This document shows, in pieces, positions 2,479 to 39,200 of a DNA stretch of 39,300 nucleotides. Source of the stretch: a virus; the UHGV virus genome UHGV-0123126; one strand, given 5' to 3'. Numbering within the stretch: the stretch's first letter is position 1; every line of letters begins with the position of its first letter. A program made the translations under genes and the position numbers. Below the pieces are notes generated by a model. That model worked only from the letters and a program-made list of their open reading frames with translations. It did no database searches and was not told where the DNA came from.

Positions 2479-3309
2479 TTATTTCACTGTAATGAAAGGA
2501 GTGTTAGCCCCTTGAGTCATGTACTGCGGTAACTGGCCATTCCATTTATTGATGGCTTCCAGTTCCATAACGTTCGGGTTTTGACGCAGAGCTTCACCGC
2601 GCAGACGAATGGCGTCTGCTTCTGCTTGCGCACGAGCACGGATAGCATCAGCTTCACCATTAGCCTGTTCACGTAGCATATTCGCCTCAGCTTTACGTTG
2701 TTCAACTTCCTGCTGACGTTGCAGAGTACGCTGGTTAGCCGTTACTTTGGCGTTAATAGATTCAATGACAGTTTTTGGGTAATCAGGCTTTCCAACCCAT
2801 GACAGGCTCAGTACCTCAATACCAACCGGAGACATCTCTTTCTGAATATCTTTCAGTGCGTTGTCCAGCAATTGTGCCTTACCACCGTCGATAAATGAGT
2901 CAGTGGTCATACGGCTGGCCAAACGGTTTAGAGAGTCGGCAATTTTCTGACGCAGATCTGATTCGGTGATATCGTCTACGCCTTTGCGATAGGTCTGGAA
3001 CACCGTCGTTACCTTGTCACGATTAACCAGATACGCAACGCCAATTTTGTGACCAATAGCAGTACCGTCACTCATCTGGAATGTGAACGGCTCGTCGTAG
3101 GTCTTCATTTGTTTGAAGGTCGGGAATACGTAAAGTTCGGTGTTAAGACCTGTCCATTGGCGACCAACGCCAACCACTTCACCAATCCCTTTGTCTTCAC
3201 CTAATTTGTTTACTTTGATGCCAACGTATCCAGGCTCCACGCGATCACAGCCAGTAAGACCCATTGTGCAAATAGCCGCCAGAGCAACTGCAAGTAAACC
3301 TTTCTTCAT
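2479..3309 (-). CDS. SPFH/band-7 (HflC/HflK-like) domain lipoprotein
   Basis: 276 aa; signal peptide with lipobox LTGC; C-terminal Ala/Glu/Arg-rich coiled-coil typical of SPFH proteins (recognised by eye). Confidence 0.7.
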   Translation of the reverse strand: MKKGLLAVALAAICTMGLTGCDRVEPGYVGIKVNKLGEDKGIGEVVGVGRQWTGLNTELYVFPTFKQMKTYDEPFTFQMSDGTAIGHKIGVAYLVNRDKVTTVFQTYRKGVDDITESDLRQKIADSLNRLASRMTTDSFIDGGKAQLLDNALKDIQKEMSPVGIEVLSLSWVGKPDYPKTVIESINAKVTANQRTLQRQQEVEQRKAEANMLREQANGEADAIRARAQAEADAIRLRGEALRQNPNVMELEAINKWNGQLPQYMTQGANTPFITVK

Positions 3310-3312
3310 TAC

Positions 3313-3513
3313 TTATTTCCCCTTTGCTTTGATTAATGAGTTGATAAACTTACGACCAGCAATAAGACCGATTACAGGAGCACCAAAACCAACGACAACT
3401 CCAAACATGACGGCTAAATCACTCTTGGTAGAAATCAGCGACGGAACCAGTAAACCGTAGATGAGAGCCACTGAAAGGCCTGTGGCTACTGCCAATAGAT
3501 AGATTTTGATCAT
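3313..3513 (-). CDS. Small two-helix membrane protein, co-operonic with the SPFH lipoprotein (possible NfeD-like partner)
   Basis: 66 aa, two hydrophobic segments; stop 4 nt upstream of the SPFH start. Confidence 0.5.
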   Translation of the reverse strand: MIKIYLLAVATGLSVALIYGLLVPSLISTKSDLAVMFGVVVGFGAPVIGLIAGRKFINSLIKAKGK

Positions 3514-3545
3514 GTGTTTTCCTATGTGGTTGTTATGTGAAAATA

Positions 3546-3561
3546 ATAAGTAAGTACTTAT
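3546..3561. promoter_or_regulatory. Palindrome ATAAGTA-AG-TACTTAT upstream of the SPFH operon
   Basis: Member of a recurring ATAAGTA..TACTTAT palindrome family (also 15746..15759, 23317..23338, 26840..26859). Confidence 0.4.
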
Positions 3562-3572
3562 ATATTTTCAAG

Positions 3573-3600
3573 AGATAAAAAGGCGTCCTGTGGACGCCTT
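3573..3600 (-). terminator. Rho-independent terminator (AAGGCGTCC-TGT-GGACGCCTT)
   Basis: Perfect 9-bp stem immediately 3' of the recombinase stop, followed by a T-run on the minus strand. Confidence 0.6.
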
Positions 3601-3604
3601 GTGT

Positions 3605-5944
3605 TTACTCTTCTACTGACTCGGTGGGGTTGTCTTTTGCTCTTCGGTCGTCGATTGCCTGCAAAGCCGCAATGATTTCAGCCAGTGGCTTCTCCCGATA
3701 CATCTCGACGATCTGCGATTTGGTGTATTTCTTGTCACCAATTTCAACTCGCCCGCTGGCGTTCTTTGGCAGGTATCCTTCTTCCAGCATGTACTCGACG
3801 AGCGATTCGATAACGTCGAGGCCACGAGTAGGATCGAAGTAGAATTTCCAGGTGCATTTGCCATACGGTGGTGCAACTTTGTTTTTGATGCATTCTGCGC
3901 CTACGTCCTGGCCGATCTTCTCTTTACCATCCTTCATCACCGATGCACCAAGACGGATACGTACAGAAGCGTAGAACTTCGGTGAATCTCCACCTGGCGA
4001 CGTAGTAGGGTCGCCAAACATTACACCGATTTTTGTGCGAACCTGATTCAAGAAGATGATGCAGGCGTTGTATTTGCGTGCCCACAAAGCCAGAGTAGGG
4101 AAGTTCGCACTCGTCGCACGAGCCAGTGCCGTATTGTCGTTCATGTTTAGCTGATCTTTGTCTTTGGCTGTGCCTTCAGCCATCTTTTCGAACTTCTCGG
4201 CTTTGGAGTTCGGAACCATAGACGCAAGAGAGTCAGCCACGATACAGATAGGTGCTGATTCGGGGATAAGCTCTTCATCACGAACCAATTTAAGTATTGT
4301 GCCGATCAACTCTACAGAGTCTTCGAAGGTATCTGGCTGCTTGTATACCCACTGACCGTCATCCTCATCTGCGTTCAGGCCATTGGCTACAGCCAGGCCA
4401 ACGTCAAAACTGTTTTCATGATCGAGGAATACCGCCAGACCATCTTGTTTTTGAGCGGAGATCATCGCTGCTGTTGCAAGGAATGTGTTGTGGCTGATAA
4501 TCCCGTTAGACCAGAAAGAGTGTGTTTCCGGCATCGCTACGTCGAACGTTGGTGCTTCACCTTCCTCAATAGCCACGACTTCGTCGTAGAACAAGTTAGA
4601 GCCAATTACCGCTGCCAGTTGTGCAAACAGATGCTCGTTAAAACGATTCTTTCTGCCAATGAAGGAGACATAGATTTCTCGCAGTTTGTCTATTCCGACA
4701 CGATCGCCGCGGCCAATAACGTGGTCTACCAGAGCGTAGTCTTCACGGGTGGTCTTGGTGAGCGACTCGTAGAGTGATTTCACTAAGCCGCTGATGTGCG
4801 GAACATAGCCTGAGTAAGTGCGGTCAAAACCAATGTCCCGTTTGGTTGCCACTGATAAACGTGCCGGAGATTCGAAACCAATCGTTGACAGAAAAAGGTC
4901 GTAATTAGAGCCACTGAATGACAGCCGGTAATATGTATTTTCATAACCCGCGACGTGTTTTTCAGAGATAGTTGACGTAATCCCCAGATTCAGGAGCATG
5001 AGGCGAATTTGCTGTAGCAGCAGCCCACTCGCGCTCACAACCTCAATGCAGCGACCATCATTGACGTGGCATTCCAGCTCAAAGTAGCCGCGAAGGAATG
5101 CAATTTGAGCCTCGCTATTGGCGCGACGCACACTCAACGGAACCTGCTTGCCAGCAGCTTTCTCATACTCCAGACCATATTCTTTAAAAAGCAGCGAACG
5201 CACCTCTTTGCTAAACAGCACATGGTCTTCCGAGCCGTTATGTTTTCTCGTAACTGGCATCTTGTCTGATACCAGCGAAATGAGGCGGTAGTACTCATCC
5301 TTGATGAAAGGATCTGTGTTAGAAAAATTCACTGAATTTTCAGAGGCCACGTATCCGTCAGCAATTAAATAGCCCATCAGTTTTGCGATATTGGCATCCA
5401 GGTGCTGATCGCCGAATTGATGTGTGCCAACCATTGAAGGAATCGTGTCGCCTACACTGATTTTTTCAGCATGTCGCCAGACGACATTACCTAAGTCGTC
5501 AACCACACGGATTGGGTGACGGAACGTAGCCTCGATATAACCGCCTGATGCCAGCTTAATACGCTTGAATTTGCGACGGTTGTTCCATGTCAGGTGTGAG
5601 GTCTTCTCTATCACGCCATTTTCATTGATGAGTCCAACGTTATGCTCTACATCGCGAGTAGTGCATGTCGCTTTGTACCCTTCAATCTCAAACAACTCTT
5701 TCACTGTTACCATTCCACGCTCCGTCAGCAGCATGGTGTCTGCGGTAACACATTTCCCCGCGCTTGGTGGCCCGAATACTTCTACGATACGACCACATGG
5801 GAAACCGCCATCGTAACGACCGGAAATAGCTTTGTTTAACGGAGGAAAGCCTGTGTCAATCCAATGAGTTACTTTCTGAATTTCGTCGTTGCTACCGATT
5901 TTCTTTTTCAGAGCAAGTGCCAGTGCGGATTTTCCTTTTGCCAT
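3605..5944 (-). CDS. recA: RecA-family recombinase (RecA/UvsX-like) interrupted by an intein; 779-aa precursor, about 357-aa mature protein
   Basis: N-extein ends GRIVEVFGPPSAGK (Walker A); C-extein resumes TFLATAAM... and contains NQVRTKIGVMFGDPTTSPGGDSPKFYASVRIRLG, closely matching the E. coli RecA core recalled from memory. Confidence 0.9.
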   Translation of the reverse strand: MAKGKSALALALKKKIGSNDEIQKVTHWIDTGFPPLNKAISGRYDGGFPCGRIVEVFGPPSAGKCVTADTMLLTERGMVTVKELFEIEGYKATCTTRDVEHNVGLINENGVIEKTSHLTWNNRRKFKRIKLASGGYIEATFRHPIRVVDDLGNVVWRHAEKISVGDTIPSMVGTHQFGDQHLDANIAKLMGYLIADGYVASENSVNFSNTDPFIKDEYYRLISLVSDKMPVTRKHNGSEDHVLFSKEVRSLLFKEYGLEYEKAAGKQVPLSVRRANSEAQIAFLRGYFELECHVNDGRCIEVVSASGLLLQQIRLMLLNLGITSTISEKHVAGYENTYYRLSFSGSNYDLFLSTIGFESPARLSVATKRDIGFDRTYSGYVPHISGLVKSLYESLTKTTREDYALVDHVIGRGDRVGIDKLREIYVSFIGRKNRFNEHLFAQLAAVIGSNLFYDEVVAIEEGEAPTFDVAMPETHSFWSNGIISHNTFLATAAMISAQKQDGLAVFLDHENSFDVGLAVANGLNADEDDGQWVYKQPDTFEDSVELIGTILKLVRDEELIPESAPICIVADSLASMVPNSKAEKFEKMAEGTAKDKDQLNMNDNTALARATSANFPTLALWARKYNACIIFLNQVRTKIGVMFGDPTTSPGGDSPKFYASVRIRLGASVMKDGKEKIGQDVGAECIKNKVAPPYGKCTWKFYFDPTRGLDVIESLVEYMLEEGYLPKNASGRVEIGDKKYTKSQIVEMYREKPLAEIIAALQAIDDRRAKDNPTESVEE
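4487..5752 (-). other. Intein (422 aa) with LAGLIDADG homing-endonuclease domain, inserted in the RecA P-loop
   Basis: Begins with Cys right after GPPSAGK, ends ...SHN followed by Thr; internal LMGYLIADGYV motif. Confidence 0.85.
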
Positions 5945-5946
5945 GA

Positions 5947-6213
5947 TCAGGCTCCTTTTGTTTCGTTGATTCGTTTTAAAGCGGCGGATTCGTCTAATAC
6001 AATCGCATCGTGATTAAGGAGTCTGGATACACGAGCGAGGATTTTTACGACCTGCTCGCTGACTAATCCAAACTCGCGATCTGTCGCTTTCATTCCGGCA
6101 GCGCCTAGAATTGACGGCAGTGCGATGACAGCGTACTCACCGTGATAAAAGACAATCTCTTTTGCCAGTTGGGTGGGGGTGGTTGTAGCGCCATTAATAA
6201 TCGATTTAAGCAT
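5947..6213 (-). CDS. Hypothetical protein (about 88 aa), translationally coupled to the recombinase
   Basis: ORF between flap endonuclease and recombinase; ATG at 6211..6213 overlaps the endonuclease stop (TAATG). Confidence 0.45.
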   Translation of the reverse strand: MLKSIINGATTTPTQLAKEIVFYHGEYAVIALPSILGAAGMKATDREFGLVSEQVVKILARVSRLLNHDAIVLDESAALKRINETKGA

Positions 6214-7208
6214 TAGCAATACCTTTCGAATGGAAGAACAAACACTTCAAGGTCTTCAAGGAACGAACGGAAATTCAGCTCGTAGCACAGTTGCTCGAAT
6301 GCTTTCACGTCACGATTGCCTTTGATTGTTTCGATTTCGGTAGGCGGAAACTTCGTCTCAATCAGGTTCATTAGCGTGATGTTTCTCTTGAACGCTTCGA
6401 GCATTCGACAGCCTGTTTTCTCGTTGAAGGCATTCTTCGCTAGTTTGTTGAAGGCGGTCTTATGACGCCCTTTATTAACCACGATTGAGCCGTCGTTGAT
6501 GCCGCGTACCATCGTTGCGACACTTCCCCATTCATGCAGCAGCTCTTTCGCACCGCCAGCACCAATGCCTCCAACACCGCTAATGTTGTCCGAGTTATCG
6601 CCTTGTAATGCTTTTGCTTCCAAAAATGCGCGAGGCGTGGCGAATCCTGTCAGCTCCGCAAATTGCTCAAAATTAACCTGCTTGTTTTTGGCGTCTTCAC
6701 GCAGGCTTACCCAGCTTACGTTTTCACGAACTAACTGAAGCCAGTCGCTATCGCCTGTTAACAGATAGATGTGTTCAACGGTTGGCTGCGGTGCCATGCG
6801 GGATACCAGCAGCCCGGCCAGATCATCCGCTTCTGCATCTTTTGCAATGAGTTGGGTAACTCCAAGCGCGGTCATCATTTTGAGGATGTATGGCTTCTGG
6901 ATAGCAAAGCCTTCCTTCATCTTTTTCATATCAGGATCGTCGTCGCGATTTGCTTTGTAGTCCGGGTAAAAGTCGCGACGCTTGTCACTAAATCCATCCC
7001 AAAGAATCATAGGTCGGGCATGGAGGATGGAGGCATAACGACGGACGTTCTTAACAAAGCCGAAAGCAGCCTGTACTTCCATTTCGCCGTTGTGCAATTT
7101 GTCAGATTGTTGGTGGTAATAACCCAGGCTATTGCCATCTACGAAGAGATAATTCACCGGTACATTCCTTCCAAAAAGTAAGGCGTCCGTAGACGCCTTA
7201 CTGGTCAC
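6213..7208 (-). CDS. 5'-3' exonuclease / flap endonuclease (FEN family); true start may be the GTG at 7155..7157
   Basis: LFVDGNSL near the N-terminus and GDNSDNISGVGGIG H3TH motif. A terminator-like hairpin at 7171..7200 lies inside the track ORF's first codons. Confidence 0.8.
   Translation of the reverse strand: MTSKASTDALLFGRNVPVNYLFVDGNSLGYYHQQSDKLHNGEMEVQAAFGFVKNVRRYASILHARPMILWDGFSDKRRDFYPDYKANRDDDPDMKKMKEGFAIQKPYILKMMTALGVTQLIAKDAEADDLAGLLVSRMAPQPTVEHIYLLTGDSDWLQLVRENVSWVSLREDAKNKQVNFEQFAELTGFATPRAFLEAKALQGDNSDNISGVGGIGAGGAKELLHEWGSVATMVRGINDGSIVVNKGRHKTAFNKLAKNAFNEKTGCRMLEAFKRNITLMNLIETKFPPTEIETIKGNRDVKAFEQLCYELNFRSFLEDLEVFVLPFERYC
7171..7200 (-). terminator. Terminator-like hairpin (TAAGGCGTC-CGTA-GACGCCTTA) after the SSB-like gene
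   Basis: Same stem sequence family as the hairpins at 2443 and 3580; followed on the minus strand by CTTTTTGG. Confidence 0.45.
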
Positions 7209-7217
7209 GTAATGGGA

Positions 7218-8246
7218 TTACAGAGAGTCCAGCTCTCTCAGTAGGTCATCCAGACCTTCATCTTCCGTCGCAGATGCGGCTGCTACAGATGTCGCTGCGA
7301 CTGCTTCAGACTCTTTGACTGATACTGCAACGGCAGCGGAACTTGCTTCTGGTTTAAATTCAGTTTCAACGGCACGGAGGATTTCTTCATCAACCAGACT
7401 GGTTGGTTCAGAAGCCGGTGTGTGCGCGGTTGCTACAGCCGTCGCTCCTTCTGTATGACCAGTGACAGAGCCAAATCCAGGTAGTGCCGCAGCCGATGTT
7501 TTCGCGGTTGAGGAAATTGCTGGTGCAGATGCTGCGGCAGTTGGTGCAGCGATGCCAATCAGACGACCCATAGTGCGAACTGTCGACAGAAGACGAGTTT
7601 CATCAGCCTGATTTGCGTATGCGATCAGATCATGCTGGGTGTTCCAGAATTTATCTTCGATATCGCCTTTGTAGACTTTACGCTTAGGCGAGACGTCATA
7701 TTTGGTATCGCGACCAGAGCCAGTACGTTTAATCAGGAATGCGTAGCCTTCCTCTTTGCTCAGTGGATTGCCGATATCATCAGCGATGTCTTCGGTGATT
7801 GCTTTGCAGATATCATCGAATACAGTAGACGGCAGCTCGATTAACTGGCATTTCTCAGCATCTGCGAAATCCTCACGAGCAGAAAGAATGCCGTTGACCA
7901 GGTAGCGAGGAGTGGCACGCATTTGACCGATGCGTTCTTCCATTGCTTTGTTACCCTTGTGACGAGCGCGACCTTCCATAACCATTTCGCATAGCTGACA
8001 AGCGCGACCGTGAGTATGTTGCTCACAAATATAAGCGTTGGTTGCTTCTTTACCTTCCTCGTTCTGATACTTAACGTAGTGCATACCGAAAGTCTGGAAG
8101 AACTTACCGTTTGGGTCGTCTTTATTCGGGAAGATGCGGATATAGTTGACGCCGTCTTTTAAGCGAGTCAGATCAACGTTGTTGCCACGTTTGGCGGCAA
8201 TGTCTTCACGAGTTTTGTTAAGCAAATCAAGTAATGTCTTAGACAT
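7218..8246 (-). CDS. Putative ssDNA-binding protein (gp32-like: Cys/His zinc site, Ala/Ser/Thr-rich linker, acidic C-terminal tail)
   Basis: CEQHTHGRACQLCE cluster, low-complexity linker, C-terminal DEGLDDLLRELDSL; sits between replication and recombination genes. Confidence 0.5.
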   Translation of the reverse strand: MSKTLLDLLNKTREDIAAKRGNNVDLTRLKDGVNYIRIFPNKDDPNGKFFQTFGMHYVKYQNEEGKEATNAYICEQHTHGRACQLCEMVMEGRARHKGNKAMEERIGQMRATPRYLVNGILSAREDFADAEKCQLIELPSTVFDDICKAITEDIADDIGNPLSKEEGYAFLIKRTGSGRDTKYDVSPKRKVYKGDIEDKFWNTQHDLIAYANQADETRLLSTVRTMGRLIGIAAPTAAASAPAISSTAKTSAAALPGFGSVTGHTEGATAVATAHTPASEPTSLVDEEILRAVETEFKPEASSAAVAVSVKESEAVAATSVAAASATEDEGLDDLLRELDSL

Positions 8247-8363
8247 GTGTTTCTCCTTGTTGTGATTTGGCCGATGGCGCTATGCGCGTTGGGCTTTCGT
8301 TCATTCGTGGCTCTTTCGAGCTGTTAAATGATAGATCAGTACTTACTTATTATCTATCAAAAA

Positions 8364-8795
8364 TCAACGGGGAGTAATAAAGCGTTCAGAGCCTAATCGC
8401 TCTAATTCAACGATGGCCATCTTTGACGCCTGAACGATCATGTCTCGGCGATGCGAAAAGGCGGCGACAGCATGTTTGTATATGTCTGCGATGTGCCGTG
8501 CTTCATCCAACTTCTGCCGTTTAGACAGATACTGTGGGTTTGTTTTAACCTTAGCGTCCAGTACAGACTCGTTGAACTTAATGCCGTTCATACTCAAGTT
8601 CTTACGCTCTGTGTCGTATAGCTTTGCTTCAACAGCTTCAAGGTTAAGTTTTGCCTCTGCGACATCTCGATCTGCCTGCGCTAGTTTTGACCCATACTCC
8701 ATTAAAAGCCGTGGCTGTTTACGCCATACTTCCTCAAGGTTGTCGCGGTCGAACTCCAGATCGGCCATGATTTTAGAAAAAATATCAGTGTTCAC
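8364..8795 (-). CDS. Hypothetical protein; weak resemblance to UvsY-type recombination mediators; GTG start
   Basis: 143-aa ORF with GTG start and AGGAA SD; resemblance judged by eye only. Confidence 0.5.
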   Translation of the reverse strand: MNTDIFSKIMADLEFDRDNLEEVWRKQPRLLMEYGSKLAQADRDVAEAKLNLEAVEAKLYDTERKNLSMNGIKFNESVLDAKVKTNPQYLSKRQKLDEARHIADIYKHAVAAFSHRRDMIVQASKMAIVELERLGSERFITPR

Positions 8796-20389: not shown

Positions 20390-20563
20390 TGTTACCTCAT
20401 AGAATTGATATGCAACTTTACTTACAAAGAAGATAGGTGTGTGCATACTTATCTTTACAGTCTGCATTATAAAGCTATTAAAGCCTCGATCAATCTATTA
20501 ATTAAGGCATTGTTTGGTTAACATTAGCCTAATATTTTATAGTTAGTAGAGTGAAATACATAC

Positions 20564-21826
20564 ATGCCTTTTTTAATTTTCATTATTATACTACTGCTCA
20601 CCGTCATTTTTTGGGATTGGGTTGTTTTAAATGGTCAAACTGTTGGAACATTGGCTACAGCATTTGCTTTTATAGCAACAGCATGGAATGCCTACGAAGC
20701 GAGAAAAAGTGCAAAAGCAGCTTTTTCAGCCCTTCAATTAACAACTGAATCATTGTTCGAAATGCGAAAGAGTGCATTTAAACAATGGTTTGATTCCTTA
20801 TTAAATCAACATGATGAGTTATGTCTTCTTGCAAAACAAATTATCGATAAACACAAAATTAATTTAAACAGCGATGAGTTACATAGACTATATTATCCAT
20901 TGGTAAGACAGCATGAGGTAATACAGTATGTGAAGCATATTATTAATATATTTGAGTATGTGGATGGTTCATTTTATATTGATGGGGAATGTCTCAAGGA
21001 AAAAAGAGCGTATGTGTCACAATTAATTTTTAAAATCCCACCTCAGATGAAGTTGATCATTGCTATCTTTGGATTAAAAATCGATTATTGTGAACATATT
21101 AATTCGGAAAAACTGTGTTGTTTATTGAATAAATATGATTTTTTCAATGATGAAATATTTTTTGATGATGCTTATTCAAATATGCCTTATCTGGATACAT
21201 TCATAAACCTTAGATTCAACAAAATATTCAAATCTCGAATGATAAATTATTTTGATAATATCATTAAAAGTTATTATGTTCCATCGGACGTTAAAAGGGA
21301 CTGGATGTTTCGACACCCAAAGCTCGTACCGTCGGTTCTTATGAATTATAAAACTCCTTGTTCTCCTATAATTAATGATTACTTTGAGAAGTTGCCTTTA
21401 CATGTAAGAAACTACTTTGAGGAACTACTTAAAACCGCGAATGATAGAGTTACTCATTTTGACGTTTACATCCCACGCCTTATTGGTTGTTCAATCGTGC
21501 AACATTACGAAGATGTGCCTTCCGAAAAAAACAGGTTAAATGACAGGAATGATGTAATAGCTATGGCTGAAGATTACATCGAGAAAAGAAAATCTAATCA
21601 ACTAGATTACATACTTGAAGATATATACTTTAAGAGTGACGAAGATATAATCCCAGGCCACCATTTAATTGTGGCATTTGATGACTATGAATATAAATTA
21701 GCACTAATTAAGATAAATGAAAATAAAGATAACGATAATCTTTTAAATCGAATTTATACTGAATCCAGTAGCATGGTTAATGAATATAAGCGCGAAATAT
21801 TAAAATTGGGCGACTATGCAAAGTAA
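20564..21826 (+). CDS. AT-rich membrane-anchored protein of unknown function (two N-terminal TM helices, about 370-aa cytoplasmic domain); candidate abortive-infection/defence protein
   Basis: 420-aa ORF with GC content clearly lower than flanking DNA; only long plus-strand gene here; own terminator. Confidence 0.65.
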   Translation: MPFLIFIIILLLTVIFWDWVVLNGQTVGTLATAFAFIATAWNAYEARKSAKAAFSALQLTTESLFEMRKSAFKQWFDSLLNQHDELCLLAKQIIDKHKINLNSDELHRLYYPLVRQHEVIQYVKHIINIFEYVDGSFYIDGECLKEKRAYVSQLIFKIPPQMKLIIAIFGLKIDYCEHINSEKLCCLLNKYDFFNDEIFFDDAYSNMPYLDTFINLRFNKIFKSRMINYFDNIIKSYYVPSDVKRDWMFRHPKLVPSVLMNYKTPCSPIINDYFEKLPLHVRNYFEELLKTANDRVTHFDVYIPRLIGCSIVQHYEDVPSEKNRLNDRNDVIAMAEDYIEKRKSNQLDYILEDIYFKSDEDIIPGHHLIVAFDDYEYKLALIKINENKDNDNLLNRIYTESSSMVNEYKREILKLGDYAK

Positions 21827-21844
21827 ATTGCACTGTTCAACAAA

Positions 21845-22018: not shown

Positions 22019-22105
22019 TGGCGGAGAGTAATGGAATCGAACCATCATCGTTTGCACAATGGGACGGTTTTCAAGACCGCTTGAGCACCATGCTCCCTAC
22101 TCTCC
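22019..22105 (-). tRNA. tRNA-Ser (anticodon UGA), class II with long variable arm, CCA encoded
   Basis: Hand-folded: acceptor GGAGAGT/ACTCTCC, anticodon loop CTTGAAA, T-loop TTCGATT, discriminator G + CCA. Confidence 0.6.
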
Positions 22106-22322
22106 AATTGTTGTGGTTACCGGTACTGATCTCCGGCTTAGCGACCCCGGCTACTGACTGCATTGCAGTGTGTGAACTCGCCTCGTGTGTCGCTGGGGCA
22201 TTTCTTTCCGCGCATCAGTCTGCGCATCAACCACAACGAAAAGAGCACTGTATGACGTTTGCACGGACTTACGCTTAAAACAGGGCAGTCTCGGCGGTTT
22301 TCAATGCTCTTTCCTGTTGTGT

Positions 22323-22398
22323 TGGTGCCGGTTAACGGACTCGAACCGCTGACATCCTGCTTACAAGGCAGGCGCTCTACCAACTGAGCTAAACCGGC
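22323..22398 (-). tRNA. tRNA-Thr (anticodon UGU), CCA encoded
   Basis: Hand-folded: acceptor GCCGGTT/AACCGGC, D-arm GCTC..GAGC, anticodon stem CCTGC/GCAGG with loop CTTGTAA, T-loop TTCGAGT. Confidence 0.8.
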
Positions 22399-22402
22399 AA
22401 TT

Positions 22403-22489
22403 TGGTGGGGAGTGATGGAGTCGAACCACCCGAGTCGCCATGACAGTAGATTTACAGTCTACACCGCTACCTCTACGGACTAACTCCCC
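22403..22489 (-). tRNA. tRNA-Tyr (anticodon GUA), long variable arm, CCA encoded
   Basis: Hand-folded: acceptor GGGGAGT/ACTCCCC, anticodon stem GTAGA/TCTAC with loop CTGTAAA, T-loop TTCGACT. Confidence 0.8.
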
Positions 22490-22494
22490 TAAAT

Positions 22495-22569
22495 TGGCGA
22501 TGGTGGGTGGATTCGAACCACCGACCAGTTGGTTAACAGCCAACTGCTCTACCGCTGAGCTACACCATC
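22495..22569 (-). tRNA. tRNA-Asn (anticodon GUU), CCA encoded
   Basis: Hand-folded: acceptor GATGGTG/CACCATC, anticodon stem GTTGG/CCAAC with loop CTGTTAA, T-arm GGTGG-TTCGAAT-CCACC. Confidence 0.8.
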
Positions 22570-26859: not shown

Positions 26860-26979
26860 CTTTTCGGCGATTGGGTATGCTGACAGTTAAGCTAAATTGA
26901 AGTAATCTTACCAATCGGTGATTACAAAGCCTTACACCGAGTAGCCACAACCACCTAACCATCTTGTGAAAATCCAAAA

Positions 26980-28017
26980 ATGAAACATTTCAAACCAATA
27001 TCTTTCTTTATGTTGTCGCTATTACTTGTTTCGGGGAGTGCACATGCCTATGAAATACAAAAGCTGATCGATGCGGCAAAAGCAGGCGACGTTGAGTCAC
27101 AGAGTGCTTTAGGTATCGACTATATGAAAGGTATTCATGGTGTCGAAAAAAACTACGATGAAGCCAGAAAATGGCTTGAACTGGCGACTTCTAAGGGGAA
27201 CAAAGAAGCGTTTAATGCTCTAGGTATAATGTATGCCCTTGGGTATGGGGTTGATAAAAATTTCAAAAAGGCTGAGGAACTCTTTAAGAAAGCTGGTGAT
27301 GCAGCTGGAGGCAACTCTTATCACAATCTGGGTGTTATTTATCATAAAGGACTTGCGGGTAAGAAAGACCAAAAACTTTCCCTGAAATATCACAAACTTG
27401 CAGTAGAGGCTGGCGACCCTGAATCTGCGTCATATCTAGGACAGTTATATTATGTTGGCGCAGGCGTGCCAAAAAGCTACAAAAAGGCAATAGAGTATTA
27501 TAAAAAAGGAATCGAACTAGGCAGTGCATCTGCATTGGCGAATCTTGGCATTATGTATGAGTATGGTGAAGGGGTTAAAAAAGATTATAAAAAAGCAGCT
27601 GAGCTTTATCAGGCAGCTTGCGATAAAGAAGATAAAAATGGCTGTGATTACATTGCAGAACTAAAAGAAAGCGGTAAATACCAACCATCAGCAGCAAGAT
27701 CTAAAGCAAAATCCTCCACTCAGCGACTTATTGCTAAATCCATTGATAAAGGCGTTAACGCAACATTTACCTGGCAGGGTGATGATGCCACCTTCACCGC
27801 TAATGATGGCAAAATTGACTGCACTTTCCTAAAGGATTTTTCAGAGAAAGGAGGCAATCTGGCTACCTCGTTTGTTTGCACCGATAACGTTCAAATCATC
27901 CTGAAGCAATTCAGAGATACCAAGAATGCCTACCTCGCGGTAATGACTGACAACTTCAACACAGAAGTTAAATCATTTTCGGTCAATGTTTACGTGACTA
28001 ATACTGGTTCAAACTAG
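26980..28017 (+). CDS. Secreted Sel1-like repeat (TPR-like) protein with N-terminal signal peptide
   Basis: Signal peptide ending SGSAHA; repeated about 36-aa units with A-x-x-G-[VI]-x-Y and K-A-x-E-[LW]-[YF]-K-K-A spacing. Confidence 0.8.
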   Translation: MKHFKPISFFMLSLLLVSGSAHAYEIQKLIDAAKAGDVESQSALGIDYMKGIHGVEKNYDEARKWLELATSKGNKEAFNALGIMYALGYGVDKNFKKAEELFKKAGDAAGGNSYHNLGVIYHKGLAGKKDQKLSLKYHKLAVEAGDPESASYLGQLYYVGAGVPKSYKKAIEYYKKGIELGSASALANLGIMYEYGEGVKKDYKKAAELYQAACDKEDKNGCDYIAELKESGKYQPSAARSKAKSSTQRLIAKSIDKGVNATFTWQGDDATFTANDGKIDCTFLKDFSEKGGNLATSFVCTDNVQIILKQFRDTKNAYLAVMTDNFNTEVKSFSVNVYVTNTGSN

Positions 28018-29190
28018 TGCTGCAATGCCTTTCACCTTGCTTAAGAGTTCAAGCTGTCGTGAATAAGGTTTTGCGCAATAGTAGGCTTTGATAATCTGCC
28101 CCGGTGTCGCATCGCCGGGGTCGAGTCCTTCCTCGCCCAAACACGCAACTTTGACATTAAGGCCAATACTTGTGAGTCGCCTAGCTGCGGCCATAGTGTT
28201 GCGTATAGCTTGCTTTTCACTATCCCACATCATGATCACATTACGTAATCCACGCGCCTTGAGCGTCAGGAACGCGCCCAGCTGATCTTCTGCATCCTGA
28301 GTGGTGTTGCCAGATAGATGCATCCCGAACGTTCCTATTGGTTCCACGTAATCACGTAATGTTTCTTCGTCAAAAATAGCTCGTTTGACCCCCATAACAT
28401 CGAACGCCCCCTCACAGACAACTACCGTCTGTTTGCCGACTGCATTATGGCCGTTGTAGAGAAACTTACCTGAAGCTGGAAGCTGCACAGGAAAGAGGTA
28501 GCGACGTTCTGCTGTACCGGTAATGTCTCGTCCCTGAAATGTCTTCATTACCCCATCCAGATCGTAAACCGGTATCAGTATTCGCATATCGAATATCTGT
28601 CCTTTAACCTGATCTGTATACGGATCTACATAGGCGTGCTTGCCTTCGACGCAGTATCGTAGGTCAAAATACTTTGCCATTTCAGGCGATATGTTTCGTT
28701 CAACCAGATAGTCTGGAAGACGACCATCTATAGGAAGCTCGTAATGACGAGGGAGTGCAACTGGCCCCTCTAACTCGACTGTGCTTGCAAGCACTAGCTC
28801 TTCTTTCTTTGGTGCCCACCCCTGGGAAAGAAGGGCGTTCTGCACATATTCCTCGAACTGTCGTCGTGATTTGCCGCTGTAGTGCTTGAGGAAGACCAGC
28901 TTATTGAACTGAATCTCTTCGGGATGATCACCAGCGAAGCATTTACCGACGCCACTGGTCAGATTGAAATATACCTTCCAGTTGGAGCTGCCACATACCG
29001 GACACTCCTTGATATTCACTTCACGACCGCGAGTACTCACGCCTCCACGTCGATAAACGATACCTTCAGTATCCAACCATTGTTCAAAATCTAATTCGGT
29101 AATTAGCTCTTTCAGCTCGCTCACGATAATTCCACTTTTAACAGGCAATATTGTGACCAACCTAAATGTTGATATAACATAAAGGCTCAT
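28009..29190 (-). CDS. DNA primase (zinc-finger plus TOPRIM); start uncertain (track ORF begins at GTG 29262)
   Basis: Zinc ribbon CPVCGSSNW...KCFAG; TOPRIM-like VVVCEGAFDVMGV; ATG at 29188..29190 avoids the hairpin at 29241..29258. Confidence 0.75.
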   Translation of the reverse strand: MSLYVISTFRLVTILPVKSGIIVSELKELITELDFEQWLDTEGIVYRRGGVSTRGREVNIKECPVCGSSNWKVYFNLTSGVGKCFAGDHPEEIQFNKLVFLKHYSGKSRRQFEEYVQNALLSQGWAPKKEELVLASTVELEGPVALPRHYELPIDGRLPDYLVERNISPEMAKYFDLRYCVEGKHAYVDPYTDQVKGQIFDMRILIPVYDLDGVMKTFQGRDITGTAERRYLFPVQLPASGKFLYNGHNAVGKQTVVVCEGAFDVMGVKRAIFDEETLRDYVEPIGTFGMHLSGNTTQDAEDQLGAFLTLKARGLRNVIMMWDSEKQAIRNTMAAARRLTSIGLNVKVACLGEEGLDPGDATPGQIIKAYYCAKPYSRQLELLSKVKGIAALV

Positions 29191-31396: not shown

Positions 31397-31678
31397 GTGG
31401 CTCACCTGGTAGGTAGTTACTTACTTATCACAATGAACGGATGATAGCGACTGGTGGCAGTTTTTGGAAGTGGAAACGGAAGGGAGTTGTTCTGGTGGTG
31501 TCTTTTAAAAGACCTGCTTCCGTATATATTTAATAAGTTACTTATTATTTATATATACAGAAGCAGGCATAACTTGTCGTCTTAGACGCCCAGAAGCTCT
31601 ACACTTTGAGCCTGTTAAATTGATTAAAAACTTATGTGTAAAATAGAACGCATTAGTCAGTAGCTAAGAGATGCAATA

Positions 31679-32446
31679 ATGGACGATTTATCGGTATACG
31701 CGAGATCATTGGATAAGGCTAAATACTATGTTTACTGTCTCTATGATACAGAAGACAAGATGAAAAGACCGTTTTACATAGGAAAAGGCAAATCGACTCG
31801 TTGTCTCGATCACATCAAGTATCCCGATGACTCTCCCAAATCCATGCGGATCAAAGAACTTTTGGCTAATAAAAAATTAGGCATAGATATTCTTCGTCAT
31901 GGTATGGATGAAACCACAGCCAAACTTGTTGAGGCGACATGCATCGACCTTATGGGGGTCGGAGAGCTTACGAATAAGGTACGAGGAAGTGGTTCCATGA
32001 TGGGCAGAATATCACTGGACGCCTACCATCACTTAGTGCTGCAAGAGGAAACTGAAATTGCTCCTGAGCACGCCGGTCTTGCCTTCCTGCTAAACAGCAC
32101 CTACAAGTCAGGAATGTCCGCTCTGGCATTATATGAAGCTACGCGTGGCGTATGGGCAAAGGTTCCAAGAGACGAGAATCTCAAATATGCCTACGCTACA
32201 TATGGTGGGCTAATAATGGAAGTTTATCAGATTGAATGCTGGGTCAAAGCCGGTTCTCAGCAGTACTTTACAAGGGATATAGCTCTTGGCCCCGACACAA
32301 AACGTTATGAATTTGTTGGCAGAATAGCCGATGAGCATATTAGAAAACTGTATGTAGGCAAATTAATCAAGAAGCCACCAAGCTACGGTAGCCCTTTTGT
32401 GAAGGTTGGGGTGGTTAGGACTGAACATAGTGTTAGCGCGGCATAA
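31679..32446 (+). CDS. GIY-YIG nuclease-domain protein with uncharacterised C-terminal domain
   Basis: N-terminal YYVYCLYD...PFYIGKGKSTR fits GIY-YIG; isolated plus-strand gene with strong terminator. Confidence 0.7.
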   Translation: MDDLSVYARSLDKAKYYVYCLYDTEDKMKRPFYIGKGKSTRCLDHIKYPDDSPKSMRIKELLANKKLGIDILRHGMDETTAKLVEATCIDLMGVGELTNKVRGSGSMMGRISLDAYHHLVLQEETEIAPEHAGLAFLLNSTYKSGMSALALYEATRGVWAKVPRDENLKYAYATYGGLIMEVYQIECWVKAGSQQYFTRDIALGPDTKRYEFVGRIADEHIRKLYVGKLIKKPPSYGSPFVKVGVVRTEHSVSAA

Positions 32447-32460
32447 AGCTGACACTGTAG

Positions 32461-32500
32461 TCATGCATTGGCGCAATGTACGCGCCAATGCATGATTTTT
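32461..32500. terminator. Strong rho-independent terminator: 14-bp stem TCATGCATTGGCGC / GCGCCAATGCATGA, 7-nt loop, TTTTT
   Basis: Perfect stem, T-run on plus strand after the GIY-YIG gene; also abuts the parG-like 3' end. Confidence 0.7.
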
Positions 32501-32858
32501 AACCTTTCTTCATCAACTCTCGTTTGATTTCATCGGTACGCATCGTGACATCGGCAGCGGTGATCGCCTCATTCAATTTCACGATGTCCTCGATTTCCTG
32601 CGGTGACTTCTCTGCCAGATGGAAAATGGCTGCTCGAATCACGTCAGAACGAGTGAACTTCTCGAAGCGAGGGATGAACTTCATCATCTCCAGCAGTTCG
32701 AAGTATTCGTCCTCCAGTGACATTGTGCGGCTTTTAATTTTCTCTTTGCCACGAGTCGGGCGTCCCTGTGGTCTGACTGGTTGGCGCAAAGGAGTTGTGT
32801 TCTTAGCCGGTGCATCAGGCTCTTTGCGCTTTGCTAGGTCACCCATTTTCATGGACAT
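32499..32858 (-). CDS. Small ParG-like partition/centromere-binding protein (basic N-terminal tail, possible ribbon-helix-helix)
   Basis: 119 aa, Lys/Arg/Pro-rich N-terminus then structured C-terminus; start overlaps parA stop (TAATG). Confidence 0.55.
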   Translation of the reverse strand: MSMKMGDLAKRKEPDAPAKNTTPLRQPVRPQGRPTRGKEKIKSRTMSLEDEYFELLEMMKFIPRFEKFTRSDVIRAAIFHLAEKSPQEIEDIVKLNEAITAADVTMRTDEIKRELMKKG

Positions 32859-36296: not shown

Positions 36297-39200
36297 TCAG
36301 TTACTTGTTGCCCCAACAGTACCTGCAAATTTCAGCCATTGACCTGACGGACTTCTATTACTACGGTAGTGATAAACGAGGATTGCGTTTGTAACTCCAC
36401 CGTAGTCAGCTTTATGTGACGTTGTTAAACGAATTGTATAATCACCGTTAGGTAGATTAAAAACTTCGATTATAGATTCTGCTAATTCTACAGCACCAAA
36501 TCCCGTTATATTGTTGATACTGCCAGCATTGAATCCCATAGCATCGCCAAAGCCAATCCAATAACTTTTGCTAAACGCCCCATTTGATTTTAGGTGGCTA
36601 ATGAATGTGGACAAACTCATGCCCATATCCCCACCTGAAACAGAGGAAGTTCGCACAGTCATGCTTGGAAGAGCACTGCTCTTCACATAGGAACTTAGAA
36701 GGTTTGTTACCTCTGTTTTCGTATAGGCATTAAGGTTAGCCGCAGTCAAAGTAATATCGGCAGAGCCATCAAACGCCACACCAGCAATTTTCCTTGCTGT
36801 CTGCAATTTTGTGGCGGTTGCGGCATTACCAGTAGTGTTCTGGTTCCCATCTGCATTCACACCTGGGATGCTGTCTTTTTTAGTATATATCTGAGTCCAG
36901 TCCTCTTCGAACCCATAGCCATCACGTGATGAACGGTAATACAATCCACCATTTTTATAATGCGCTCGGATTTGGAGAGTCCGACAACTACCTACGCCTG
37001 TATAAAAATTTGCAACGATATAAGAATCCCCGGAGCGTGTAACATTATACGCACCTGATTCGGCATTCCACGGGACCGCACCACTAGCATCGGCATAAGT
37101 TCCAGTAGCGCGTCGAGCAAAAGCAGATACATTTGCAGCTGTTAGTGTTATATCAGCAGAACCATCAAAAGCCACGCCACTTATTTTTCTGGCAGTTTGT
37201 AACTTTGTAGCCGTAGATGCATTACCGTTCAAACTACCATTGATGCCGCCAGTAACATTGAGTCCATTACCAATGGACACAGCACCGCTGGTATTGTTAA
37301 TTGTAATCGGTCGCAAACCGTTCCATGAACCTAATGTGTCTCCTGATGCTGTTAGCATGAAATATGTGTTCGACCCATCATTACGGATAAAGAACCCAAA
37401 GCTACCGTAAGCAATGCGGAAACCATTTGCATATTTTGAAACGATCTCACCAGAAGACGTTAACCCTCCAGATAATGTGCCACCTGAAAGCGGTAATGCG
37501 CCGACATCCGTGGCGGTCGGTTTAATGTGCGAACTGTAAATGACATATACCGTTCCATCAGTAAGACCAGTTGGTTTATTCGCTGTATAAGTTGGTGATG
37601 TATGAATCGTTACGCTGGCGTTACTGGTATAATCCCACTGAATATTAACACCTGTGGCGTAATTACCTATTTCAACATAAACATCATAGGTATCACCGGA
37701 TGTATTCACCCATGCAAAATTAGTAAATCCAACCGATGTCCGTCGCCATAATGCACCAGTAATACCCTTTGGATTTCCATTTCCGGCACGCAGAACCAGC
37801 TCAGAGATGCCTGCTTGATGCGGGGAGCCAACGTTATACCCTGCACCACCAATCAGGCTTATGTAAACCACGGAACTGGCCTGTGGCATGGTTACAGTTG
37901 CCAGCTTGAACCATCCGGCACCACCAATAAAAGACATTGTTGCTGAGTTGATCGTGCCTATAGACCTTGGAGTTAGCTCAATGTTTTTAGAACCGTCAAA
38001 CGACACCCCATTAATAGTACGCGCAGTCTGCAACTTCGTAGCAGTAGCCGCATTACCTGTTGTATTCTGATTACCAGTCGTATTAACACCTGGCAAATTA
38101 ATATTTGCAGTACCATCAAAGCTCACGCCGCCGATAGTTCTTGCCGTCTGTAGTTTTGTAGCAGTTGCAGCATTACCAGTGGTGTTCTGATTACCCGTAG
38201 TGTTTACACCTGGAAGGTTAATATTTGCAGAACCGTCGAAAACAACTCCACCGATAGATCTTGCCGTCTGTAATTTCGTTGCTGTAGCAGCATTTCCTGA
38301 AAGACTTGAAATAAATGGATGTGAACAGTAATAACCTCGTCCATTTTTAAAGTCCAAAATTATCTGTGCATTCGTACTTTCTGATAAAGGATCAGTTGCC
38401 CCCCACTTATAAGTGGTTTGACCAACTGCATAATCAGCCGTTGGAACAATCACATTTAATCCTTCCTCAGCAAAAATCTGGATAGGGAATGCTCTTGTCT
38501 CAACGTAAAATACACTACACAAATCATCATCTTTCACGCTTGCGATAATCGAGTGTATAGATCGTTCAACGGTTGAATATATTGAGAAAAAACCAACAGC
38601 ATATGAACCGCGATCAGACCAACCGCCCGGCATAACAAAACCATTAAACTCACAATTATTCATAGCGTATCCGCCAGCTGAGGAATAAGTGGTGATAACC
38701 ACTCGTGAGGCTAATTCATCTGTGCCACCACCAGTTCGGCGAAAGACTACAGGATACCACTTACCGCTTACTGCATTTGCAGGAGCAGAGAAAGTGTATT
38801 TTCGCATCCCCTTTTTCTTATCCACTTCACCTTTGCTGTAAACATTAATGTTATTCAGGAAGCGGCCCTTGTCGGGGATATCAGCACCATTCTGATCCTT
38901 CTGTAGTCGTTTTTCAGCATTATCATATGCGGTCTTAACTGCTTTTGGTGTCGCGGCTAAAGATTCACTGGTGCTGTCGACAGCACTGCTAAGTTTCACA
39001 ACACCTTTGGTGGTAAGGCTTGCATCTTCCATCGCAACTGCACCGGCAATCTCTTCAGCACGATCAGCAGCAGCTTCCGCACGGGTCGCAGCGGATTCAG
39101 CAGCAGTTTTGCTCTGAGATGCTGCCGTCGCACTGCCTGCCGCCTCTGTTGCTTTCGTGGATGCTGTCGTGGCGCTGCCCTTCGCTGCGGACGCTTGTCT

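What the first reader, a model, noticed from the sequence alone, without database searches (positions are those of the whole stretch)
3605..5944. RecA-family recombinase interrupted by a LAGLIDADG intein inside the Walker A P-loop
The precursor reads GPPSAGK, then Cys plus a 422-aa insert carrying LMGYLIADGYV and ending SHN, then TFLATAAM. Removing the insert (nt 4487..5752) restores a canonical GPPSAGKT P-loop and a 357-aa RecA-like protein. An insertion in the ATP-binding loop would make recombinase activity splicing-dependent.
Basis: seen in the sequence. Interest (0 to 1): 0.65.

Follow-up and report, generated by a model that had tools for sequence, protein, structure and literature searches.

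The report
Known intein in phage-plasmid RecA
The gene is a RecA-type recombinase of an SSU5-like phage-plasmid whose ATP-binding loop is interrupted by a self-splicing, mobile protein element (an intein with a homing endonuclease); it is real, but this same protein was already catalogued in 2015 as the "E. coli RecA intein".

Summary
A 779-aa ORF on the minus strand (3605..5944) reads GPPSAGK | Cys65 … His-Asn486 | Thr487. The 422-aa insert (nt 5752..4487) passes the Pfam cut-offs for an intein splicing domain and for a LAGLIDADG endonuclease. Its predicted structure matches solved endonuclease-bearing inteins.

The strongest evidence is a natural empty allele. Escherichia phage CMS-2020a lacks exactly these 1266 nt, and its 357-aa RecA is 100% identical to the predicted spliced product.

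The intein is 97-100% identical in DNA across recA lineages that are only 82-86% identical to each other. Each lineage has alleles with and without the intein, which points to recent homing.

It is not new. The precursor is 779/779 identical to the protein of E. coli MS 145-7. Topilina et al. 2015 (PMC4513877, Table 1) list that strain's RecA intein as "c2 (65-486)", at the same P-loop point as the Pyrococcus RadA intein. The intein DNA is in 248 PLSDB plasmids and in 120 of 5426 complete E. coli genomes, always on plasmids.

What this work adds: the host gene belongs to a phage-plasmid recombination module, not to the chromosomal recA, and RefSeq usually names the whole precursor "LAGLIDADG family homing endonuclease". 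Splicing and cleavage remain untested. Interest is low.

The parts
3605..5944 (-). Precursor ORF: 779 aa plus stop codon (coding 3608..5944); RecA recombinase with an inserted intein
   Evidence: 779/779 identical to WP_001051807.1 of the E. coli MS 145-7 plasmid
5753..5944 (-). N-extein, residues 1-64, ending in the Walker A residues GPPSAGK (58-64 = nt 5753..5773)
   Evidence: aligned to GPESSGK of E. coli RecA
4487..5752 (-). Intein, 422 aa (precursor residues 65-486), 1266 nt, in frame
   Evidence: Exactly this segment is absent from phage CMS-2020a; Pfam PF14890 and PF14528; TIGR01445; fold match to endonuclease-bearing inteins
5750..5752 (-). Cys1 of the intein (block A nucleophile, precursor C65)
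   Evidence: Cys in every homologue that covers this position
5516..5527 (-). Block B T-x-x-H motif (TFRH, intein residues 76-79, precursor 140-143)
5348..5380 (-). First LAGLIDADG motif, LMGYLIADGYV (intein 125-135); the putative catalytic Asp is in 'ADG'
   Evidence: (aligned to LGYLIADG of the TliVMA intein)
5063..5098 (-). Second LAGLIDADG motif, FLRGYFELECHV (intein 219-230); a Glu aligns with the catalytic Asp of the solved intein
4853..5410 (-). Approximate homing-endonuclease domain (intein about 115-300). It is followed by a helical region (intein about 320-385, nt about 4598..4792) before the C-terminal splicing strands
   Evidence: Pfam LAGLIDADG_3 at intein 215-292; secondary structure of the model; Foldseek match to I-DmoI. 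Boundaries are approximate
4487..4552 (-). Blocks F and G, PTFDVAMPETHSFWSNGIISHN (intein 401-422), with the penultimate His and terminal Asn
   Evidence: the best-conserved stretch among homologous inteins
3608..4486 (-). C-extein, residues 487-779. It starts with Thr487 (nt 4484..4486), which is both the +1 splicing nucleophile and the Walker A Thr. It contains the Walker B-like IVADS and the L2-loop NQVRTKIGVMFGDPTTSPGG

Best explanation
The gene encodes the RecA-type strand-exchange protein of an SSU5-like phage-plasmid. It sits in a recombination module with a UvsY-like mediator, a gp32-like single-strand-binding protein and a 5'-3' exonuclease. The gene has been invaded by a class-1 intein between the Lys and Thr of the Walker A motif.

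Inferred mechanism: the 86.5-kDa precursor is translated. Cys65 attacks the preceding peptide bond. The N-extein is transferred to Thr487. Asn486 cyclises and releases the 47.5-kDa intein. The exteins are then joined into a 39-kDa RecA with an intact GPPSAGKT loop. Until that happens the ATP site is split, so the recombinase should be inactive.

The released intein carries a two-motif LAGLIDADG endonuclease. This enzyme is inferred to cut intein-less recA alleles of related phage-plasmids at the empty site. Repair from the intein-bearing copy then copies the intein in (homing).

What is shown here: the anatomy, the family membership, the exact empty site, and the population signature of recent horizontal spread. 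What is inferred: splicing itself, endonuclease activity, and the dependence of RecA activity on splicing.
For: Boundaries and residues: C65, TFRH, HN486 and T487. Family cut-offs passed: PF14890, PF14528 and TIGR01445. Predicted fold (pLDDT 83.6, pTM 0.87) matches the TliVMA intein at E 1e-19 and TM 0.71, and also PI-PfuI, PI-PkoII and PI-SceI. Empty site: CMS-2020a lacks exactly the 1266 nt and its RecA equals the predicted spliced product, 357/357; SSU5 and Klebsiella pKP110-2 are also intein-less. Recent transfer: the intein is 96.8-100% identical in DNA among alleles whose exteins are 82-86% identical, and each of three extein lineages has both forms. Synonymous divergence is 0.09 in the intein against 1.75 in the C-extein for window versus Klebsiella p4727. 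All intein-bearing alleles share the flanks GCGGGGAAA|...|ACATTCCT, while empty alleles differ synonymously at -7, -4 and +3. This is consistent with short co-conversion tracts. Purifying selection on the intein: dN/dS 0.15 overall and 0.095 in the endonuclease core, on few substitutions. Both LAGLIDADG motifs keep an acidic residue. Phage-plasmid context: the region is 97% identical to phages PhiR41_1 and Cyrano; Cyrano's annotation of the region corresponding to the window shows ParA, RepA, tail, lysis and integrase genes; the intein is found only on plasmids in E. coli. Literature: the same protein is listed as the RecA c2 (65-486) intein, at the same point as Pho RadA (PMC4513877).
Against: No experiment on this intein was found. 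Topilina et al. only catalogued and modelled it, so splicing efficiency and endonuclease activity are unproven. The dN/dS estimates rest on 38 substitutions. Because the intein arrived recently, the strong conservation of the exteins mostly predates it and does not prove that the interrupted gene still yields active RecA. The shared flanks could reflect target preference rather than co-conversion. Some distant relatives of this intein (P0022, P0027, P0028) have lost the first LAGLIDADG motif, so endonuclease decay does occur in this family.
Confidence: 0.9

Rival explanations
1. The intein still splices but its endonuclease is dead. The element is then only inherited vertically or carried along by ordinary recombination between phage-plasmids.
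For: Endonuclease decay is seen in distant relatives that lack the first LAGLIDADG motif. Phage-plasmids are mosaic and recombine often; for example, the 3' end of recA and the downstream region differ sharply between the window and Cyrano.
Against: The intein is nearly identical in three extein backgrounds. The exchanged tract ends within about 10 nt of each junction, which ordinary recombination would rarely produce three times. The endonuclease core has dN/dS about 0.1, and both catalytic acidic residues are kept.
Confidence: 0.08
2. The intein no longer splices. The ORF is then effectively a RecA pseudogene that serves only to express an endonuclease, as the RefSeq product name 'LAGLIDADG family homing endonuclease' would suggest.
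For: RefSeq gives the 779-aa product that name in most records. No splicing data exist.
Against: Every splicing residue is intact and conserved among homologues (C1, TxxH, HN, +1 Thr). The ORF is full length and identical on at least 1000 contigs. The few extein changes among intein-bearing alleles are almost all synonymous: 19 synonymous against 2 non-synonymous for window versus Cyrano. One RefSeq record already names it 'intein-containing recombinase RecA'.
Confidence: 0.04
3. The insert is a native domain of this RecA lineage, not a mobile element.
For: None beyond its in-frame position.
Against: Orthologues that are 97-99% identical in the exteins lack it precisely. It matches intein and LAGLIDADG families and folds. 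Homologous inserts occupy the same GK|T point in unrelated ATPases such as the phage Twort helicase.
Confidence: 0.01
4. Besides being selfish, the intein acts as a conditional switch. Splicing, and therefore recombinase activity, would be held back until some condition is met (temperature, redox state, induction of the lytic cycle), as reported for the Pyrococcus horikoshii RadA intein at the same site. This is an add-on to the main explanation, not an alternative to it.
For: The insertion point is the same as in Pho RadA, where the native exteins control splicing (PMC4513877). The intein has extra cysteines at positions 30, 228 and 235.
Against: About 70% of related plasmids do without the intein, so it is dispensable. 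The nearby extein Cys50 is Ser in the Klebsiella allele. Topilina et al. report that the extein-intein contacts modelled for Pho RadA are not feasible for the E. coli precursor. Recent horizontal spread fits a selfish element.
Confidence: 0.12

Closest known systems
[quoted passage not shown] 2015, Nucleic Acids Res 43:6631 (PMC4513877), Table 1
   Same: It is the same element. The table lists residues 65-486 for E. coli MS 145-7, E1520, 2780750 and others, Enterobacter cloacae BWH 29 and Salmonella enterica 557928. The window's precursor is 779/779 identical to the MS 145-7 plasmid protein.
   Different: Nothing in the sequence differs. In the passages I read, the paper treats it as a bacterial RecA and does not mention that the gene lies on an SSU5-like phage-plasmid. 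I found no report of splicing, endonuclease or homing data for it.
Pyrococcus horikoshii RadA intein (insertion point c1)
   Same: It occupies the same point at the end of the P-loop of a RecA/RadA-family ATPase, and both have a HINT splicing fold (Foldseek hit 4e2t).
   Different: Pho RadA carries a mini-intein without an endonuclease, from a hyperthermophilic archaeon. The intein sequences are unrelated enough that the authors infer independent invasions. Conditional splicing has been shown only for Pho RadA.
Mycobacterium tuberculosis and M. leprae RecA inteins (insertion points a and b)
   Same: Both are LAGLIDADG-type inteins in RecA.
   Different: They use different insertion points (residues 252 and 206, at the monomer-monomer interface) and lie in chromosomal recA. 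The NCBIfam model built on them (NF007072) scores only 100.8 bits against a cut-off of 1024.
P-loop inteins of Herelleviridae phages (Staphylococcus phage Twort ORF006 helicase; Bacillus phage fHSPT3 RecA)
   Same: These are homologous inteins (31-34% identity over all 422 aa, E 1e-41 to 1e-54) at the same GK|T/S point of Walker A: GKPGGGK|C…HN|S in fHSPT3 RecA and TNGGK|C…HN|T in the Twort helicase.
   Different: Their hosts are virulent phages of Firmicutes. In Twort the host protein is a helicase, not RecA. They share only about a third of their residues with this intein.
Solved endonuclease-bearing inteins: TliVMA (7qss), PI-PfuI (1dq3), PI-PkoII (2cw7), PI-SceI (1vde)
   Same: They share the overall architecture, a HINT splicing domain with a nested double-motif LAGLIDADG endonuclease (Foldseek E 1e-19 to 4e-9, TM 0.71 to 0.49).
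   Different: Sequence identity is only 11-21%, and the host proteins and insertion sites differ.

Membership tests
Intein (HINT-domain protein-splicing element, class 1) | Cys or Ser as the first residue of the insert | tested here: met
   Cys65 of the precursor
Intein (HINT-domain protein-splicing element, class 1) | Block B T-x-x-H motif | tested here: met
   TFRH at intein residues 76-79; the His is conserved in all six aligned homologues that cover this position (the Thr in five; P0022 has Asp)
Intein (HINT-domain protein-splicing element, class 1) | C-terminal His-Asn followed by Cys, Ser or Thr as the first C-extein residue | tested here: met
   H485-N486 | T487
Intein (HINT-domain protein-splicing element, class 1) | Match to the splicing-domain family and fold | tested here: met
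   PF14890 46.6 bits (cut-off 35.8); TIGR01445 35.5 bits (cut-off 24.5); Foldseek hits to the TliVMA, GyrA, RadA and Mtu RecA inteins
Intein (HINT-domain protein-splicing element, class 1) | In-frame insert that is absent from orthologues, whose removal restores the host protein exactly | tested here: met
   CMS-2020a lacks nt 5752..4487; its RecA equals the predicted spliced product, 357/357. The same holds in two further lineages
Intein (HINT-domain protein-splicing element, class 1) | Autocatalytic excision and extein ligation | not testable with these tools
   Needs expression of the precursor; no published experiment was found
LAGLIDADG homing endonuclease (two-motif, monomeric) | Two LAGLIDADG helices, each ending in an acidic residue | tested here: met
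   LMGYLIADG (Asp) and FLRGYFELE (Glu, aligned to the Asp of the TliVMA intein)
LAGLIDADG homing endonuclease (two-motif, monomeric) | Match to the family and fold | tested here: met
   PF14528 65.8 bits (cut-off 22.5); Foldseek hits to I-DmoI and PI-PfuI
LAGLIDADG homing endonuclease (two-motif, monomeric) | Site-specific cleavage of the intein-less allele, leading to homing | not testable with these tools
   Indirect support only: the intein is 97-100% identical across extein lineages that are 82-86% identical; dS is 0.09 against 1.75; the flanking bases are shared
RecA (bacterial-type recombinase, PF00154) | Family match above the Pfam cut-off, with Walker A, Walker B and the L2 loop aligned to E. 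coli RecA | tested here: met
   Spliced protein scores 145.8 bits (cut-off 27). GPPSAGKT, IVADS and NQVRTKIGVMFGDPTTSPGG align to GPESSGKT, VVDS and [20 protein letters not shown]
RecA equivalog (TIGR02012, housekeeping bacterial RecA) | Score above the equivalog cut-off of 325.3 bits | tested here: not met
   132.6 bits for the intein-bearing precursor (the spliced protein was not scanned). On this score it is a divergent phage/plasmid RecA paralogue rather than the cell's RecA; it is found only on plasmids in E. coli
NCBIfam NF007072 'intein-containing recombinase RecA' (mycobacterial type) | Score above 1024 bits | tested here: not met
   100.8 bits. That model describes a different RecA with an intein at a different site
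RecA insertion point c2 (Topilina et al. 2015) | Intein at residues 65-486, directly after the P-loop Lys, in enterobacterial 'RecA' | tested here: met
   The coordinates are identical and the protein is identical to that of the listed strain MS 145-7

The most novel reading that the evidence does not exclude
The intein's endonuclease may work as a weapon between competing SSU5-like phage-plasmids. When two of them meet in one cell, the intein-bearing one would cut the rival's recA. That would either convert the rival or cripple its recombination module, and the synonymous differences at -7, -4 and +3 in the remaining empty alleles would be escape variants. Alternatively, or in addition, splicing could be conditional and gate the recombinase to a particular phase (plasmid maintenance versus lytic growth). 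Nothing here excludes either reading and nothing specifically supports them.
Probability: 0.12. Interest if true: 0.5.

Novelty: already known. Interest (0 to 1): 0.15.

Why it matters
As a discovery it matters little. P-loop inteins are the commonest kind, and this one is in a published table.

It has three practical uses:
- **Annotation.** RefSeq names the 779-aa precursor "LAGLIDADG family homing endonuclease" in most of the listed E. coli and Klebsiella plasmid records. That name hides the recombinase of a clinically widespread phage-plasmid family.
- **Classification.** The published "E. coli RecA intein" is really an intein of a phage-plasmid RecA. This changes how its distribution and any physiological role should be read.
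- **An experimental system.** About 30% of related plasmids carry the intein, and near-isogenic empty alleles exist in three lineages. This gives a tractable system in E. coli for measuring intein homing and its cost in nature.

Tried and rejected
- **Later literature on this intein.** I searched for work on it in phage-plasmids (terms SSU5, phage-plasmid, phage-like plasmid, pHCM2, 'E. coli RecA intein', Klebsiella + homing endonuclease). Nothing relevant turned up. The hits that mentioned inteins were about toxin-intein antimicrobials. The library holds only open-access papers, so absence is not proof.
- **Two review and survey papers.** The review on intein inhibitors (PMC8529194) and the mycobacteriophage intein paper (PMC5050341) do not mention this element.
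- **A redox trap.** I considered a trap between extein Cys50 and intein Cys1. I rejected it because Cys50 is Ser in the Klebsiella allele.
- **Foreign base composition.** I asked whether the intein differs in composition from its host gene. It does not: GC is 0.48 against 0.47-0.49, and GC3 is 0.52 against 0.51.
- **A faulty alignment.** My first alignment (A1) included a stray one-residue sequence by mistake. I discarded it and used A2.
- **Other inteins in the window.** I did not scan the other ORFs for inteins. The large replication genes (PolIII alpha 1172 aa, helicase 446 aa, primase 417 aa, ligase 440 aa) have ordinary lengths, so none is suspected, but this was judged by length only.
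Full report

Yes. The only ORF spanning 3605..5944 lies on the minus strand and encodes 779 aa.

- Residues 58-64 are GPPSAGK.
- Cys65 opens a 422-aa insert that contains LMGYLIADGYV and ends SHN486, followed by T487-FLATAAM.
- The insert is nt 5752..4487.
- Deleting it gives a 357-aa protein with GPPSAGKT.
- Calculated masses are 86.5 kDa (precursor), 39.0 kDa (spliced RecA) and 47.5 kDa (intein).

**2. What the parts are**

Family matches:
- Pfam places the precursor in RecA (PF00154), but as a split match. The spliced sequence gives one contiguous match (E 2.2e-42).
- The insert passes the curated cut-offs of Intein_splicing (46.6 against 35.8 bits) and LAGLIDADG_3 (65.8 against 22.5 bits).
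- NCBIfam adds the intein N-terminal splicing region TIGR01445 (35.5 against 24.5 bits).

The host protein:
- Against solved structures, the spliced protein matches bacterial RecA at about E 1e-34. Phage UvsX matches only at 2e-9 and RadA at 1e-5.
- In that alignment GPPSAGKT, IVADS and NQVRTKIGVMFGDPTTSPGG lie over the Walker A, Walker B and L2 loop of E. coli RecA.
- The intein therefore sits between the residues equivalent to K72 and T73.
- The precursor scores well below the equivalog cut-off for housekeeping RecA (132.6 against 325.3 bits), so it looks like a divergent paralogue. The spliced protein was not scanned.

The intein:
- It has Cys1, TFRH (block B) and two LAGLIDADG motifs with an Asp and a Glu at the catalytic positions. 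Blocks F and G read PTFDVAMPETHSFWSNGIISHN.
- An AlphaFold2 model (pLDDT 83.6, pTM 0.87) matches solved endonuclease-bearing inteins. The hits are TliVMA (E 1e-19, TM 0.71), PI-PfuI, PI-PkoII and PI-SceI, with partial hits to mini-inteins and I-DmoI.

**3. The natural empty site**

The window is 97% identical to Escherichia phages PhiR41_1 and Cyrano over 3300..6300. Both carry the same 779-aa gene; Cyrano annotates it simply as 'RecA'. Escherichia phage CMS-2020a matches at 98% but in two pieces.

A nucleotide alignment shows that CMS-2020a lacks exactly window 5752..4487, which is 1266 nt. Its 357-aa RecA is identical to the predicted spliced product. SSU5 itself (358 aa) and Klebsiella plasmid pKP110-2 are also intein-less.

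**4. Evidence of recent mobility**

I compared six intein-bearing and three intein-less alleles.

- The exteins fall into three lineages that are 82-86% identical to each other: E. coli/Cyrano type, SSU5/Enterobacter type and Klebsiella type.
- Each lineage has both forms, with extein identity of 98.3%, 96.9% and 98.8% within the intein-bearing/intein-less pairs.
- The intein is 96.8-100% identical across all lineages.
- For window versus Klebsiella phage p4727, synonymous divergence is 0.09 in the intein against 1.75 in the C-extein, and it is saturated in the N-extein.
- All intein-bearing alleles share the bases GCGGGGAAA| … |ACATTCCT next to the junctions, whatever their background. The three empty alleles differ synonymously at -7, -4 and +3.

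This is the pattern expected from endonuclease-driven homing with very short co-conversion tracts. It could also partly reflect resistant empty sites.

Within the intein, dN/dS is 0.15, and 0.095 in the endonuclease core. That is consistent with a functional endonuclease, but it rests on only 38 substitutions.

**5. Context**

Cyrano's annotation of the region corresponding to the window shows tail, lysis, ParA, RepA, integrase, helicase, primase, ligase and PolIII-alpha genes. It also shows a recombination module: UvsY-like mediator, gp32-like single-strand-binding protein, 5'-3' exonuclease, a small ORF and RecA. Pfam confirms the gp32 and exonuclease assignments for the window's ORFs. The element is an SSU5-like phage-plasmid.

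Distribution:
- The intein DNA occurs in 248 PLSDB plasmids: Escherichia 123, Klebsiella 71, Enterobacter 41, Citrobacter 6 and a few others.
- It occurs in 120 of 5426 complete E. coli genomes, never on a chromosome.
- A C-extein probe finds the recA homologue in 831 plasmids, including Yersinia 63 and Salmonella 49.
- Roughly 30% therefore carry the intein. The two searches used different sensitivities, so this fraction is approximate.
- The exact precursor sequence was seen on at least 1000 contigs.

**6. Comparison with what is known**

Topilina et al. 2015 (PMC4513877) surveyed RadA/RecA inteins. They defined insertion point c in the P-loop, as c1 in archaeal RadA and c2 in bacterial RecA. 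[quoted passage not shown]

Their Table 1 lists 'c2 (65-486)' for eight E. coli strains including MS 145-7, two Enterobacter strains and one Salmonella strain. The closed genome of E. coli MS 145-7 carries the gene on a plasmid, and its product is 779/779 identical to the window's. The finding is therefore the published element. One RefSeq record already names it 'intein-containing recombinase RecA'.

Homologous inteins (28-45% identity) occupy the same GK|T/S point in several other proteins:
- metagenomic RecAs, some of which scan as bacterial-type RecA (RecA plus RecA C-terminal domain);
- the RecA of Bacillus phage fHSPT3;
- the helicase of Staphylococcus phage Twort and its relatives.

This fits the known preference of inteins for P-loops (PMC4760082).

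**7. What remains inferred**

I found no experimental data on splicing or cleavage for this intein. The mechanism rests on intact catalytic residues, family and fold membership, the empty site and the population pattern. That RecA is inactive until spliced follows from the split Walker A motif and from the Pho RadA precedent. It is not shown here.

**8. Verdict**

The novelty rating is 'already known'.

Modest additions from this work:
- the phage-plasmid context, which I did not find stated in the passages of the paper that I read;
- the sequence evidence for ongoing homing among three recA lineages;
- the prevalence figures;
- the frequent RefSeq naming of the whole precursor as a homing endonuclease.

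Interest is 0.15.

Noticed in passing
window 31577-32501 (ORF 31679..32446, + strand, 255 aa): This segment has no match in phage Cyrano, which carries an unmatched stretch of about 800 bp at the corresponding place. It encodes a protein with a LEM-3-like GIY-YIG nuclease domain (PF22945, E 5.5e-7). It may be a free-standing homing endonuclease, which would make it a second mobile nuclease in the window.
   Followed up: partly
window 26868-28050 (ORF 26980..28017, + strand, 345 aa): A 1.2-kb insertion relative to Cyrano lies between the primase gene and a 260-aa ORF, on the opposite strand. It encodes a protein with five Sel1 repeats (PF08238, E 1e-37). It looks like an accessory ('moron') gene.
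   Followed up: partly
window 20400-21841 (ORF 20564..21826, + strand, 420 aa): This 1.4-kb segment near the integrase is absent from Cyrano. Its 420-aa ORF has no Pfam match.
   Followed up: no
window 22019-22569, minus strand: A cluster of four tRNA genes: Ser-TGA, Thr-TGT, Tyr-GTA and Asn-GTT. Cyrano annotates only Asn, Thr and Ser, and part of this stretch (22124-22493) does not align to Cyrano.
   Followed up: no
window 3316-3700 (3' end of recA, the intergenic region and the 66-aa membrane-protein ORF): Most of the 98 differences between the window and Cyrano in 3300..6300 fall here, while CMS-2020a stays close to the window. This suggests a recombination breakpoint inside the last ~30 codons of recA, typical of mosaic phage-plasmids.
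   Followed up: no
window 5947-8795, minus strand: The recombination module upstream of recA comprises a UvsY-like ORF (8364..8795, no Pfam hit, named from Cyrano's annotation), a gp32-like single-strand-binding protein (7218..8246, PF08804 E 1.7e-66), a FEN-type 5'-3' exonuclease (6213..7208) and a conserved 90-aa ORF of unknown function (5947..6219) directly before recA.
   Followed up: partly
RefSeq and PLSDB records matching window 4487-5752: PGAP names the whole 779-aa precursor 'LAGLIDADG family homing endonuclease' in most listed records. GenBank submitters call it 'recombinase RecA', and one RefSeq record says 'intein-containing recombinase RecA'. The naming is inconsistent and hides the recombinase.
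   Followed up: yes
window 36297-39032 (minus strand, 911 aa): This is a tail-fibre gene (Phage_fiber_2, Gp34 trimerisation and gp37_C domains). It has two patches that do not align to Cyrano (37508-37993 and 38286-38935), probably host-range variable regions.
   Followed up: no
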